This document shows, one piece after another, positions 7,920-64,000 of a DNA stretch of 64,000 nt (the first letter of the stretch is position 1; each line of letters begins with the position of its first letter). A program made the position numbers and the translations under genes. The stretch covers positions 5,056,001 to 5,120,000 of the forward strand of contig OZ252299.1 of NCBI GenBank assembly GCA_965250285.1, written 5' to 3'. A model generated the notes under the pieces. That model did no database searches and was not told the origin of the DNA. It was given only the letters and a program-made list of their open reading frames with translations. This DNA is from Myxococcota bacterium (GTDB taxonomy: Bacteria; Myxococcota_A; UBA9160; UBA4427).

Positions 7920-8009
7920 CGGAGTCCTTCATGTCGACGTTCGAAACCCGGCTGCACGCGCAGTCATTCGCGCCGCTGCAGGGTGGCTTCGCGCTGCCAC
8001 GGAGAACCG

Positions 8010-8333
8010 ATGTCGCTTCGTGAGCGGGTCATCGCGCGTCGGAGCCCCGTGCACGGCAAGGGCGTCTTTGCGCGCCGACGGATTCGCACCGGGCAGTACA
8101 TCGGTACGTTCGAGGGCCGCGAGACGCACGAAGACGGCACCTATGTGCTCTGGCTGGTCGAAGCAGACGGCACAGAGGTCGGGATCGAGGGCCGCAACGA
8201 TCTGCGATTCCTGAATCACTCCCGCGAGCCCAACGCGGAGCTGCGCGAGCTCGACCTCTATGCGATTCGCAACATCCAACCGGGGGCCGAGATCTACATC
8301 CACTATGGGGAGGCCTGGAATGACATCGATTGA
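8010..8333 (+). CDS. Minimal SET-domain protein-lysine methyltransferase
   Basis: SPVHGKGVFA, RFLNHSREPN, EIYIHYG SET motifs; GGAG RBS. Confidence 0.9.
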   Translation: MSLRERVIARRSPVHGKGVFARRRIRTGQYIGTFEGRETHEDGTYVLWLVEADGTEVGIEGRNDLRFLNHSREPNAELRELDLYAIRNIQPGAEIYIHYGEAWNDID

Positions 8334-58719: not shown

Positions 58720-59373
58720 TCAGGCCCTGCTGCGTGCCGCGCGGCGGAGCACGACGGCGCCGACGCAGAAGAGAGCGAGGCCCGTGGGCTCCGGCACCGG
58801 CTGGGCACCGCCCGCCGAGGGGCCACCGTCGGTCTCGTACTCCCACTTCGCGAACGAGAAGTCGACGACCGAGTCACCCTTGCGGCTGACCACGGCGACC
58901 TGAAGCTCGTCGCCGGCGTTGTGGAAGAACGCGGTGACGTCGCCCTCGAAGAGCGAGAACCAGGCGCTGCCGCGCTGCCAGAACTCGTCGTTCAGGGCGA
59001 GGCTCACCTTCTCCTTGCCGTCGAAGAACTGATCGTCGCGGATGCCGACGTACAGGTGCGCGCTCGTGACCGAGAGCACCGACATCGACGGCGTGAAGCT
59101 GTGCGTGTAGACGACGTAGTCGCGGCGGCCACTCAGGTAGCCGTCGCCCAGACCCTGCCCCTGGTAGATGTCACCGTTCAGGTAGAGGTCCATGGGGTCG
59201 TCGCCGATGTAGCCGGCTTCCATCGTCGCCCGCATGTCGCCGGGGAAGAGGAGGCTCTGGTCGGACGTCAGCAGCTCGCCGTAGTACATCGTGCCGGCGA
59301 AGGCCGGGACGGCGAAGAGCACGACCATGGCGGCGGCGAGGACGTGCGCGAATCGGAGGTTCATCTTGTTCAT
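58720..59373 (-). CDS. PEP-CTERM sorting-domain exported protein
   Basis: Signal peptide ending AFA, C-terminal VPEPTG + TM + RR. Confidence 0.88.
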   Translation of the reverse strand: MNKMNLRFAHVLAAAMVVLFAVPAFAGTMYYGELLTSDQSLLFPGDMRATMEAGYIGDDPMDLYLNGDIYQGQGLGDGYLSGRRDYVVYTHSFTPSMSVLSVTSAHLYVGIRDDQFFDGKEKVSLALNDEFWQRGSAWFSLFEGDVTAFFHNAGDELQVAVVSRKGDSVVDFSFAKWEYETDGGPSAGGAQPVPEPTGLALFCVGAVVLRRAARSRA

Positions 59374-61308: not shown

Positions 61309-62142
61309 CTACGCGGGATCGCTGCGCCGGGGCAGCGCGTCGACGAAGTCGTCGATGGCCGCCGCGAGCGCCTCGGGGGTGTCGAGCAGCACGTGGTGGC
61401 CCGCGCCCGCGATCTCGCAGAGCCGGGCGCCGGGGATCTCTTCGACGAGCTTCTCGGCGCCTTCGCGTGACAGGATCCCGCTCTCCCCGCCGCGCACCAC
61501 GAGGGTCGGGCAGGCGATCTGGGCGGGGTCGGGTCGATCGCGCGGGGGCAGGGCGAACCAGGCCGGGTCGAACTTGTAGCCGTAGCGCCCGTCTTCCTCT
61601 TCGCGCACCGAGGCGGTCGCGATGGCCACGCGGAGCGCCTCGCTGCAGTGGTCGCTCGGGGGCAGGAACCGGAAGCGGTCGATCGCCTCTTCTCGCGAGC
61701 GATACGAGCGCTTGAGTCGCAGCGCCAGATGAGCCCTTCGCTTCGAACGAGGCCGGCCGCCGCGCGCGGGGTCGATCAGCACCGCTGCGCGCGTCTCGGG
61801 GTGCCGCGAGACGTGGTCGAGGGTGACGTGCGCTCCCATCGAGTGACCGACCAGAACGACGTCCCGCGCACCGATCCAGTCGAGCAGGGCCTCGAGATCG
61901 TCCTGAAACGCCCCCGCTTCGTGCTCCTCGGGATGTTCCGAGTCGCCGTGGCCACGAAAGTCGAGGGCCCAGACGCGGAATCGATCGGCGAAACGGGGCG
62001 CGAGATGATCCCACCAGTGTGCGTTTGCACCGCCCCCATGCAGCAACACCATCGGCGGAGACGCCGGGTCGCCCCAGGCACGAAGATGCAGCTCGACGCC
62101 GCCGAGCGCATCGGTGGTGAAGTGCTCGTCGATGGGTTCCAT
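61309..62142 (-). CDS. Alpha/beta hydrolase
   Basis: LHGGG, DFRGHGDS, GHSMG nucleophile elbow, AGHH. Confidence 0.92.
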   Translation of the reverse strand: MEPIDEHFTTDALGGVELHLRAWGDPASPPMVLLHGGGANAHWWDHLAPRFADRFRVWALDFRGHGDSEHPEEHEAGAFQDDLEALLDWIGARDVVLVGHSMGAHVTLDHVSRHPETRAAVLIDPARGGRPRSKRRAHLALRLKRSYRSREEAIDRFRFLPPSDHCSEALRVAIATASVREEEDGRYGYKFDPAWFALPPRDRPDPAQIACPTLVVRGGESGILSREGAEKLVEEIPGARLCEIAGAGHHVLLDTPEALAAAIDDFVDALPRRSDPA

Positions 62143-62451
62143 GCAGCCAAGGCTAGCAACGTGATCGCCGGCACCGAATCGGGACACGGGCGGCGCCGAT
62201 CAAAAAAGCGTTTTGCTGATACGAGCTTGCACCGAATCCCCGCAGTAGAGCACGAATGTCGAGATGGCCGAAATCGACCGCCTCGCGGCTTCTCGCGGCC
62301 GATCTCGACACCCTCCGAGCGTCGACGGCGCAGACGTTCGCGAACGCTGAATTCGAGATCGGCCGCGCGAGGCCCGCTAGCCCCCCGAATCCGGGGGTCT
62401 TGGGGAACGGCCGAATTCGGCACTTTCACGCCCTCTCGATGCGTTTTCCGA

Positions 62452-62479
62452 TTGACGACCCCCGCAGAACCCTTAATAT
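62452..62479 (+). promoter_or_regulatory. Putative sigma70-type promoter for histone gene
   Basis: TTGACG-N16-TAATAT. Confidence 0.45.
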
Positions 62480-62604
62480 CGGCGCGAATCGGGGTGCAGA
62501 AGGCATCTCGGTGGATTCAAACGAATTCGTCTTTTGGGGGATACGACGACCTCGGTCACTGCGACGAACGCAGGGCACGCAGGTCTTCGTTCAAGGGAGG
62601 GAAC

Positions 62605-62817
62605 ATGGCAGCCCGCAAGAAGAAGAAGGCCGCACGCCGCGGCAAGCCCGTCGAGCTCATCATCTCGAAGTCGCGCACCAAGGGTGCCGTCAAGAAGTGC
62701 AACGTCGGCGGTGACTTCTACGAAGCGCTCGACAAGGCGGTTCGCGAGCTGATCAAGGACGCCGAAGCGCGCGCCGTCGGCAACAAGCGCAAGACGCTGA
62801 AGGCCGTCGACCTCTAG
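62605..62817 (+). CDS. Bacterial histone-fold protein with basic N-terminal tail (70 aa)
   Basis: MAARKKKKAARRGKP-VELIISKSRTKGAVKKCNVGGDFYEALDKAVRELIKDAEARAVGNKRKTLKAVDL; RKTxxxxD histone-fold motif; GGGAGG RBS; own terminator. Confidence 0.85.
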   Translation: MAARKKKKAARRGKPVELIISKSRTKGAVKKCNVGGDFYEALDKAVRELIKDAEARAVGNKRKTLKAVDL

Positions 62818-62893
62818 GTCGAATCTGCCGGCACGCGGCGCTCGTCGAGCGTCCGCAGAACGTCCGAGAGAATGTGAGAACGCAAGAATGAAT

Positions 62894-62933
62894 GAAGGGC
62901 TCGCCAGCATCGCTGGCGGGCCCTTCTTCATTT
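62894..62933 (+). terminator. Intrinsic terminator after histone gene (possibly bidirectional)
   Basis: GAAGGGCTCGCCAGC-ATC-GCTGGCGGGCCCTTC followed by TTCATTT. Confidence 0.8.
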
Positions 62934-63037
62934 CGGGGCTGGCTCCGGCGCTCGAATCGTGCGGGGCGAGCGCCCAGCTTGCCTGACATCGAACGAGTCG
63001 ACGCAGGCGCCGCGGTCGTGCACCTCGGCGCCCAGAG

Positions 63038-64000
63038 TCAGTCGGGCTGCAGCTCGAGCTGACTGCCCGCGGTCAACGTCAGCTCGACCCGACTGGGTCG
63101 TTGCGCAGACGTGACCACCCATTGCTTCGAGACGACCGGCTCGTCGTCGTCGAGCGTCGGCGGCCGGGCGCGCGCGAACCGCGGGCAGTGGGCGGGCGCG
63201 ACGTGAATGCGCACGCGGTGGCCCGCGCGAAACCGCCACGTGCGGTGCCCGAGCGAGACGACGAGCTCATGTGGCTCGTCCTTCTGTGGCTCGTCCTTCG
63301 GTGTCGCGACGTCGTCGAGCCGCGCGAGGCCATCGCCAACTTCGAGGAGCGAGCCCCGCGGCGCGGCGTCGATCAGGTGCACCGCAAAGTCGGCCGGCGC
63401 TTGATCGGCGCCAACGAAGAGTCGCGCGACGACGGGGCCAGCCAGGACGACATCGCGCGCAAGGGGCGCGCTCTCGAGCACCGCGACGTCATCGCGCAGG
63501 GCGAGTCGCCCCTGATCCTTCGAACCGGCCTTCCAGCCGAAGAGCGCGCCGCCGATCGTGGGGGTCGGGTCGCTCGGGTCGTACTCGATCTCGACGCGTC
63601 CCGCGGCAGTGGCGGGCGCGGACACGAGGCGTGCCCGGTCGGTGCTCGCATCGAGATGGAGTGCGGCGGTGTGAGCGTCGGCGGGTGGCCAGGTCGGGCT
63701 GTCGCGCCACTCGCCGCGAGCACCGGGGTCGCAGACGAAGAATCGCACCGCGGGTGCGACGTTCGAGGGCGTGCGCTCGGCGAGGTGGGTGTCGAGATGC
63801 TCGACGATGCGACCGAGTGAACGTCGCTGCAGGCCGTCACGAAAGAAGCGGCGATGGGCGACCGGACCATGGCACCACGGACCGAGCAGCAGCTGCGGCG
63901 CCGCGCCGAGACCGGCGGCCGCCTGCGCGGTGAGCGCTGCGTGATCGTCGAGCTGGGGCTCGAGGAAGAAATCCCAGTAGCCGCCGATCAAGAGCGTCGG
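63038..64000 (-). CDS. CocE/NonD-family hydrolase, C-terminal part (5' truncated)
   Basis: GGYWDFF, LGPWCHG, YDPSDPTPTIGG, LAGPV, FRAGHRVR. Confidence 0.85.
   Translation of the reverse strand, partial: PTLLIGGYWDFFLEPQLDDHAALTAQAAAGLGAAPQLLLGPWCHGPVAHRRFFRDGLQRRSLGRIVEHLDTHLAERTPSNVAPAVRFFVCDPGARGEWRDSPTWPPADAHTAALHLDASTDRARLVSAPATAAGRVEIEYDPSDPTPTIGGALFGWKAGSKDQGRLALRDDVAVLESAPLARDVVLAGPVVARLFVGADQAPADFAVHLIDAAPRGSLLEVGDGLARLDDVATPKDEPQKDEPHELVVSLGHRTWRFRAGHRVRIHVAPAHCPRFARARPPTLDDDEPVVSKQWVVTSAQRPSRVELTLTAGSQLELQPD

What the first reader, a model, noticed from the sequence alone, without database searches (positions are those of the whole stretch)
62605..62817. Bacterial histone with a eukaryote-like Lys/Arg-rich N-terminal tail
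Seen: a 70-aa monocistronic gene with promoter, strong RBS and terminator, present in the ORF track only as the tail of a spurious 389-aa ORF. The core has the short alpha1, long alpha2 and RKTLKAVDL end of prokaryotic histone folds, with a truncated alpha3. Established: bacterial histones (e.g. Bdellovibrio Bd0055 and face-to-face types) are abundant DNA-binding proteins and are mostly tail-less. Here a 14-residue tail MAARKKKKAARRGK with an ARK motif precedes the fold. Inference: a major nucleoid protein whose tail could add DNA affinity or be modified.
Basis: partly seen in the sequence, partly recalled or inferred. Interest (0 to 1): 0.76.

Follow-up and report, generated by a model that had tools for sequence, protein, structure and literature searches.

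The report
Tailed face-to-face bacterial histone
A small stand-alone gene encodes a bacterial histone with a short lysine/arginine-rich tail that is predicted to form a four-part ring and likely wraps DNA; tailed histones of this type are already described, so this is a new example of a known kind.

Summary
62605-62817(+) is a real 70-aa gene with its own promoter, ribosome-binding site and terminator; its only in-frame ATG/GTG/TTG lies before the tail. It is an alpha3-truncated histone of the face-to-face (FtF) class: the nearest solved structures are HLp, HTkC and HBb (1.1-1.4 A), it carries the FtF tetramer residues R56/N60, and four copies are predicted to assemble through them (0.88, best control 0.00). 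It occurs in 26 of 27 sampled genomes of its class.

The premise of novelty fails. PMC11390915 already says tails are common and mostly basic in bacterial FtF histones, and names Myxococcota. 'ARK' is not an H3-type motif: residue 4 is R in 47 and K in 32 of 83 tails, and four unrelated Lys-rich proteins of this genome start with the same MAA[RK]K. The genome also encodes a tailless HBb-type histone and two HU/IHF proteins. Closeness of a SET gene 54 kb away is explained by regional synteny. The scan noted this family twice before on other genomes. Tail function and modification remain untested. New member of a known kind; interest 0.3.

The parts
62605..62817 (+). Gene for a 70-aa face-to-face (alpha3-truncated) histone
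62605..62652 (+). Codons 1-16: basic N-terminal tail (net +8 over residues 1-14), predicted disordered
   Evidence: charge; pLDDT 50 for residues 1-10, no helix before 22; residues 1-16 not among the confident contacts
62653..62814 (+). Codons 17-70: histone fold; alpha1 22-28, alpha2 36-59, one-turn alpha3 67-69; FtF residues R56, N60, R62, T64, D69; ends at L70
   Evidence: residue spacing matches D4GZE0 R41/N45/R47/T49/D54
62452..62479 (+). Sigma70-type promoter TTGACG-16-TAATAT, with a T-tract just upstream that is conserved in relatives
62536..62540 (+). G-run (GGGGG) in the predicted 5' leader, conserved in relatives; role unknown
   Evidence: 40 of 53 leaders against 12 expected from shuffles
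62595..62600 (+). Shine-Dalgarno GGGAGG, 4 nt before the ATG
62894..62926 (+). Intrinsic terminator hairpin; A-rich on the left and T-rich on the right, so probably shared with the convergent downstream gene
   Evidence: bidirectional use is inferred
61309..62139 (-). Divergent alpha/beta-hydrolase gene (neighbour, not part of the transcript); ATG at 62139 is my choice, the ORF list starts it at GTG 62187
   Evidence: homologue within the fetched locus in 64 of 94 loci
63038..64000 (-). Convergent gene with a PepX_C domain, 5' end beyond the window (neighbour)

Best explanation
This gene encodes a face-to-face (alpha3-truncated) bacterial histone that is predicted to form a homotetramer and likely wraps about 60 bp of DNA without sequence preference, while its basic, likely disordered tail probably adds electrostatic grip on nearby DNA. 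Shown: gene, start, promoter-like and terminator-like sites, homology, FtF residues, near-universal presence in its class. Predicted: fold; dimer through alpha2; dimer-dimer contact through R56/N60/R62/D69. Inferred from HLp and HTkC: DNA contacts by K22/S23/R24/K26 and R62/K63/T64, wrapping, a role in nucleoid compaction. Inferred from composition: the tail is a lineage-typical Lys/Ala tail, of the same type as on other basic proteins of this organism, gained independently of eukaryotic tails. Four tails would add +32 to a core charge of +20 and bind linker or neighbouring DNA. The histone probably shares the nucleoid with a tailless HBb-type histone, HU/IHF and H1-like proteins.
For: Profile A2 against PDB: HTkC 9F2C E 4e-17, HLp 9QT0 5e-15, HBb 8CMP 7e-13; nucleosomal HMfA only 0.011. 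AF2 model pLDDT 80.8. Foldseek top rows HLp and HTkC, rmsd 1.2 A, E 0.004-0.006. VIA-align: HLp Z 7.1, rmsd 1.1, 54 aligned; HBb 6.9, 1.4, 53; HTkC 6.8, 1.4, 54; next 4.8. R56, N60, R62 at 90% or more and T64, D69 invariant in 85 aligned homologues; R56 and a C-terminus right after D-x in 94 of 94 close loci, which fits the R-to-C-terminal-carboxyl bridge. Four copies: score 0.88, best of 3 controls 0.00; mark reached by 20 of 30 solved pairs and 1 of 23 single chains; runs agree in at least 98% of contacts; partner pLDDT at least 82; second interface at residues 55-56, 59-60, 62, 68-69. Found in 38 of 41 genomes of the family and order, in 26 of 27 other genomes of the class and 12 of 123 in the rest of the phylum. 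No D or E in any of 94 tails; tail length 6-20. HLp wraps about 60 bp (PMC12701072).
Against: The fold searches alone do not separate FtF from the dimer class (three Z-scores tied; no Foldseek hit at E 0.001 or better). The tetramer score may come from memory of solved FtF structures, and the job was unlike the two-copy calibration; closure of the ring was not inspected. The minor-groove arginine of HTkC (R22) aligns to N33 and the alpha1-L1 region is 2-4 residues shorter than in the solved proteins, so wrapping may differ. High abundance is not shown: the codon score is only at the 85th percentile of 70-codon windows. Unlike Leptospira, this genome has HU/IHF and a second histone, so 'main' nucleoid protein is uncertain. 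The role of the tail rests on composition only.
Confidence: 0.82

Rival explanations
1. The tail is a regulatory element: its lysines or N-terminus are methylated or acetylated by a dedicated enzyme that recognises MAA[RK]K on several nucleoid proteins, tuning DNA binding much as eukaryotic histone marks do.
For: Position-specific conservation of the first residues (A2 83 of 83, A3 74, R/K4 79, K6 79 of 83 distinct tails). All 5 of 87 MAA-starting candidates that continue [RK]K are Lys-rich; 0.38 expected. A small SET-domain gene exists here and in 24 of 41 genomes. Asgard histone tails are modified (10.64898/2026.07.02.735847, passages).
Against: The SET gene was not found in 17 of 41 genomes, among them G031 (one contig, 96% complete), which has the tailed histone. 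Its 15-54 kb closeness is explained by whole-region synteny: 28 of 28, 33 of 33 and 7 of 7 aligned segments map to the same G000 region. The motif was chosen after the fact, includes the histone itself, and is partly compositional. It is kept in only 1 of 24 topoisomerase orthologues and 7 of 17 homologues of the 78-aa protein. Beyond residue 6 tail length and sequence vary freely.
Confidence: 0.1
2. It acts as a dimer that bends or coats DNA like Bdellovibrio HBb, and the tail supplies the extra affinity.
For: HBb is tied with the FtF histones in the fold search (Z 6.9, rmsd 1.4, 53 aligned). It has the RKT lysine (K63), which the FtF profile does not strongly conserve.
Against: It has R56 and N60, whose absence defines bacterial dimers. 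The genome's second histone lacks both and matches HBb at E 1e-14, so that role is filled by another gene. The predicted dimer-dimer interface uses those residues.
Confidence: 0.05
3. The tail is a near-neutral by-product: an Ala-Ala start and A-rich Lys codons favoured for translation initiation and protein stability, with little effect on DNA binding.
For: PMC10919886 (passages) argues that Lys-rich tails arise easily on prokaryotic histones and NAPs. Tailless homologues of about 56 aa keep the R/N residues (e.g. P0152, P0174). HLp's first 6-7 residues are not visible in its crystal structures.
Against: No acidic residue in 94 tails and a median tail charge of +7 in organisms of very different leader sequence point to selection for charge over 6-20 residues, well beyond the first few codons.
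Confidence: 0.03

Closest known systems
HLp, FtF histone of Leptospira perolatii (PDB 9QT0-9QT2; PMC12701072)
   Same: Model superposes at rmsd 1.1 A over 54 residues, 32% identity; R56/N60/R62/D69/L70 align with R49/N53/R55/D62/F63; predicted tetramer interface.
   Different: HLp has a short, largely non-basic N-terminus in the aligned part and no other histone or HU in its host. Here the tail is about 15 residues with +8, the alpha1-L1 region is 2 residues shorter, and HU/IHF and a second histone coexist.
HTkC, archaeal FtF histone of Thermococcus kodakarensis (PDB 9F2C; PMC11390915, 10.64898/2025.12.06.692711)
   Same: Best sequence hit (E 0.0069 single, 4e-17 profile); DNA-contact residues K7/S8/K9/K11/R51/K52/T53 align with K22/S23/R24/K26/R62/K63/T64.
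   Different: HTkC is tailless and archaeal; its minor-groove R22 aligns with N33; the alpha1-L1 region is 4 residues longer.
Tailed bacterial FtF histones as a group (PMC11390915)
   Same: Positively charged N-terminal tail on an FtF core, Myxococcota named as a main carrier.
   Different: [quoted passage not shown] Whether this exact subfamily is in its figures could not be seen (supplement file 2 is pictures).
HBb/Bd0055, bacterial dimer histone (PDB 8FVX, 8CMP)
   Same: Same alpha3-truncated fold.
   Different: HBb lacks the tetramer R and N; in this genome the HBb-like protein is a separate tailless gene.
Lys/Ala-rich tails of bacterial NAPs (HupB; HC2-type H1-like proteins)
   Same: Tail composition K 38%, A 29%, R 14%; an HC2-like protein (Pfam PF07382, E 5e-13) and a 93-aa all-basic protein of the same genome start with MAAKKK and MAARKKK. 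HupB named as a parallel in PMC10919886.
   Different: Those tails are much longer and repetitive and sit on non-histone proteins.

Membership tests
Face-to-face (FtF) alpha3 histones | Histone fold (alpha1-L1-alpha2-L2-alpha3) | tested here: met
   AF2 model; top structural matches all histones; profile hits
Face-to-face (FtF) alpha3 histones | alpha3 cut to 3-4 residues, alpha2 shortened | tested here: met
   Three helical residues 67-69, chain ends at 70; 54 of 56 HLp residues aligned at 1.1 A; on a predicted model
Face-to-face (FtF) alpha3 histones | RxTxxxxD motif | tested here: met
   R62, T64, D69; T64 and D69 invariant in 85 sequences
Face-to-face (FtF) alpha3 histones | Tetramer residues R (profile 48) and N (profile 52) | tested here: met
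   R56 and N60 with the spacing given; aligned to HLp R49/N53; R56 in 94 of 94 close loci
Face-to-face (FtF) alpha3 histones | Conserved alpha1 lysine (D4GZE0 K11, profile 16) and neighbours | tested here: met
   K22 in 94 of 94; K22/R24/K26 align with HTkC DNA contacts K7/K9/K11; which lysine equals profile position 16 was not fixed
Face-to-face (FtF) alpha3 histones | Predicted dimer-dimer contact through end of alpha2, L2 and alpha3 | tested here: met
   0.88 against best control 0.00, interface 55-56, 59-60, 62, 68-69; may reflect likeness to solved FtF tetramers
Face-to-face (FtF) alpha3 histones | Closed torus, both sides of each dimer engaged | tested here: inconclusive
   One search lists contacts of one copy only; no coordinates returned
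Face-to-face (FtF) alpha3 histones | Tetramer in solution and wrapping of about 60 bp | not testable with these tools
   Needs SEC-MALS, MNase, TPM
Bacterial dimer histones (HBb type) | Lack of the tetramer R and N | tested here: not met
   R56 and N60 present; definition
Nucleosomal (HMf/HTk) histones | Full alpha3 of about 10 residues | tested here: not met
   Chain ends one residue after D69
Eukaryotic H3-type tail | Position-conserved tail sequence with modifiable motifs such as ARKS (motif recalled, not from a call) | tested here: not met
   ARKS in 2 of 83 distinct tails; S/T 7% of tail residues; residue 4 R or K; ARKS absent from this protein
Eukaryotic H3-type tail | Post-translational modification by dedicated writers | not testable with these tools
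   Needs mass spectrometry; genomic linkage to SET rejected

The most novel reading that the evidence does not exclude
This class of free-living bacteria runs a tail-regulated chromatin: a near-invariant DNA-wrapping histone, a second tailless histone and H1-like proteins, with a shared N-terminal MAA[RK]K signal that one methyl- or acetyltransferase (for example the small SET protein) writes on to tune compaction, an independent bacterial parallel of the eukaryotic histone code.
Probability: 0.08. Interest if true: 0.85.

Novelty: new member of a known kind. Interest (0 to 1): 0.3.

Why it matters
It adds a well-defined, very conserved subfamily to the tailed bacterial FtF histones. In the papers read, the only FtF histones with functional data are HLp and HTkC, and neither has a long basic tail, so this 70-aa protein is a convenient test of what such a tail does. 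The class is also unusual in often carrying two histone types (2 or more matches in 20 of 28 genomes). If the tail proved to be modified by a dedicated enzyme, tail-based chromatin regulation would have arisen independently in bacteria. Nothing here shows that.

Tried and rejected
Pfam and NCBIfam give no histone family for the protein, so family libraries miss it. Rfam: nothing near a gathering score in 62100-63100. SET linkage: rejected by the synteny control (a first protein-level attempt timed out). Sirtuin linkage, a lead from earlier scan notes: a sirtuin-like upstream neighbour in 4 of 75 loci with an assigned neighbour (family named from recalled motifs, not scanned). Residues 1-22 against PDB sequences: no match to E 10, a weak test for a low-complexity peptide. 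Expression: contigs of 4 RNA runs (3 studies) from relatives lie on 62527-62823 and nowhere else in 61800-63500, including a 308-nt contig in X1 with 10 differences over 284 bases; the runs were found with this gene, contigs give no strand or level, flanks diverge more, and the comparison on the r-protein cluster was dominated by other organisms, so this is compatible with transcription but ranks nothing. Codon bias: weak in this genome; 85th percentile of 70-codon windows, held-out r-protein-cluster genes 5.5-99.8. My first view of a single histone in the genome was wrong; the broader profile found a second. Literature searches: 'histone + UBA9160' gave 0 papers (the class name is recalled, not from a call); four-term search with Myxococcota and tail gave 4 papers, 3 listed; bacterial histone + SET + methylation + tail gave 5, none on a bacterium's own histone by title or abstract start. 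Searches listed no test of a bacterial FtF tail. MAARK, KCNV, Deltaproteobacteria and Myxococc were not found in the 3 text supplements of PMC11390915; file 2 could not be read and may show this subfamily.

Full report
Observation. The stretch 62605-62817(+) encodes 70 residues and appears in the ORF list only as the end of a 389-codon frame. The long frame overlaps an alpha/beta-hydrolase gene on the other strand, has GC3 0.70 against 0.90 for the histone, and is open for 100 or more codons upstream in only 16 of 94 distinct loci. Codon 1 is the only in-frame ATG/GTG/TTG of the gene and follows GGGAGG. A promoter-like TTGACG-16-TAATAT (62452-62479) and a 15-pair terminator hairpin (62894-62926) flank it. 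The promoter pattern recurs in 70 of 94 distinct loci against 7.9% of shuffles; terminator-like hairpins occur in 38 of 91 against 11%. A crude neighbour pick gives a divergent upstream gene in 55 of 75 and a convergent downstream gene in 60 of 79 loci, so the gene is mostly monocistronic. The 94 loci are the distinct coding sequences among 110 fetched, include the window's own, were chosen for likeness to the query and are related, so their counts are not independent.

Identity. Pfam and NCBIfam name no histone family, but the PDB search finds HTkC and HLp weakly, and a profile of 85 homologues (31 of 119 listed hits and 53 of 150, picked by hand for being single-domain and whole, plus the query) finds HTkC, HLp and HBb at E 4e-17 to 7e-13, HMfA at 0.011. 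The AlphaFold2 model (pLDDT 80.8) has helices 22-28 and 36-59, a one-turn alpha3 and a low-confidence N-terminus. Foldseek ranks HLp and HTkC first (rmsd 1.2 A, none at E 0.001); VIA-align gives HLp Z 7.1, HBb 6.9, HTkC 6.8, tied, then 4.8. The class is decided by sequence and assembly. PMC11390915 defines FtF histones by a tetramer held by R41 and N45 ahead of R47-T49-D54, and bacterial dimers by lack of that R and N. This protein has R56, N60, R62, T64, D69 in that spacing and ends at L70. R56, K22, C32 and the C-terminal position, which my search pattern did not force, are kept in 94 of 94 loci. Four copies score 0.88 against a best control of 0.00 (mark reached by 20 of 30 solved pairs, 1 of 23 single chains; runs agree in at least 98% of contacts; pLDDT at least 82), with a second interface at 55-56, 59-60, 62, 68-69 and no confident contact before residue 17. 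Like complexes are solved, so the pass shows likeness, not binding.

Distribution. One search found 1920 proteins at E 0.001 or better. The gene is in 38 of 41 genomes of the family and order, and by profile in 26 of 27 other genomes of the class but 12 of 123 in the rest of the phylum. Of 80 named records, 57 are labelled Myxococcota or Deltaproteobacteria; 9, including the closest, are labelled Spirochaetales or Spirochaetaceae, and 14 otherwise. I take the host to be Myxococcota, without direct proof.

The tail. Residues 1-14 carry +8, the core +5. Tails in the 94 loci are 6-20 residues long with no D or E; the wider family runs from tailless to tails of about 45 residues. The start is fixed (A2 83, A3 74, R or K at 4 in 79, K6 79 of 83 distinct tails). 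In this genome four unrelated proteins start the same way: a type II topoisomerase B subunit, a 93-aa all-basic protein that begins MAARKKK, a 78-aa protein of no clear family, and an HC2-like protein. Five of 87 candidate MAA starts continue [RK]K against 0.38 expected, and 5 of 17 Lys-rich N-termini begin so; the pattern was chosen after the fact, includes the histone and is partly compositional. It is kept in 1 of 24 topoisomerase orthologues and 7 of 17 homologues of the 78-aa protein. The tail thus looks like the lineage's general Lys/Ala tail, not a piece of H3.

What is in print. [quoted passage not shown] PMC12701072 (parts 1-2 of Results, Discussion, passages) shows HLp as a tetramer wrapping about 60 bp. 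The HTkC preprint (passages) shows that R45A behaves as a bending dimer. PMC10919886 (passages) argues Lys-rich tails arise easily and independently. The Asgard preprint (passages) reports modified tails in archaea and has no mention of Myxococcota. Searches listed no experimental study of a bacterial FtF tail; subscription journals are not covered, and the picture supplement of PMC11390915 could not be read. Two earlier notes of this scan reached the FtF reading on other genomes; I had reached it before looking.

Partners. The genome has two HU/IHF genes and a second, tailless 62-aa histone without the R and N that matches HBb at E 1e-14. Its only detected SET gene lies in this window, 54 kb away, and shares a contig with the histone in three relatives at 15-43 kb. 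But every aligned segment of those regions maps to the same G000 region (28 of 28, 33 of 33, 7 of 7), and SET was found in 24 of 41 genomes against 38 for the histone, so the closeness carries no weight.

Mechanism. Most likely: homodimers through alpha2 pair face to face through R56/N60/R62/D69; the basic rim binds and wraps DNA; four flexible tails add charge on adjacent DNA. Gene, residues and distribution are shown; fold and tetramer are predicted; wrapping, abundance and tail function are inferred. Abundance has only indirect support: a conserved near-consensus promoter, a modest codon score and RNA-run contigs that cannot rank genes.

Verdict. A real and well-conserved FtF histone with a basic tail; new member of a known kind. 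Confidence 0.82 in the main reading; interest 0.3. The bold reading, a written tail signal shared by nucleoid proteins, is not excluded: probability 0.08, interest 0.85 if true.

Noticed in passing
G000:C1:5688410-5688598 (-), L222:1914-2099: Second histone gene, 62 aa, tailless, HBb/bacterial-dimer type (E 1e-14 to 8CMP), lacking the FtF R and N; similar second or third matches in 20 of 28 class genomes.
   Followed up: partly
G000:C1:1256558-1256839 (+), L142:1059-1337: 93-aa protein made almost only of K, A, R, S, G and T, starting MAARKKK like the histone; no Pfam or NCBIfam match; H1- or protamine-like by composition.
   Followed up: partly
G000:C1:5721240-5721476 (+), L141:1741-1974: 78-aa protein with a MAARK basic tail, a GRP-type hook-like stretch (label recalled) and a weak NikA-like ribbon-helix-helix match (E 0.081); found in 20 of 41 genomes.
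   Followed up: partly
G000:C1:513557-515407 (+) and 4072665-4073222 (-): A type II topoisomerase B subunit with a Lys/Ala N-terminal tail of variable presence in relatives, and an HC2-like protein starting MAAKKK.
   Followed up: partly
window 7983-8333 (+): Minimal 116-aa SET-domain protein, the only one found in the genome; in 24 of 41 genomes; substrate unknown.
   Followed up: partly
window 62536-62540 and leaders of relatives: A G5-G7 run, apparently between hairpins (by eye), in the 5' leader of 40 of 53 loci (12 expected), with no start codon behind it in the window; could be an SD-like stabilising or standby site (idea only). No Rfam match.
   Followed up: partly
window 62445-62486: The promoter keeps a fixed 16-nt spacer with a GAAA-like motif, an upstream T-tract and a G+C-rich stretch after the -10 box across 53 loci; recalls growth-rate-controlled promoters (recalled, untested).
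   Followed up: no
window 62698-62700 (codon 32): Cys32 in loop L1 is kept in 94 of 94 close loci but not in distant homologues; possible redox or packing role.
   Followed up: no
P0147, P0155, P0157, P0162, P0163, P0183 and others: Tandem double-fold proteins of about 120 aa made of two FtF-like units among the distant hits.
   Followed up: no
window 58720-59373 (-): 217-aa protein with a weak PEP-CTERM match (E 0.017).
   Followed up: no
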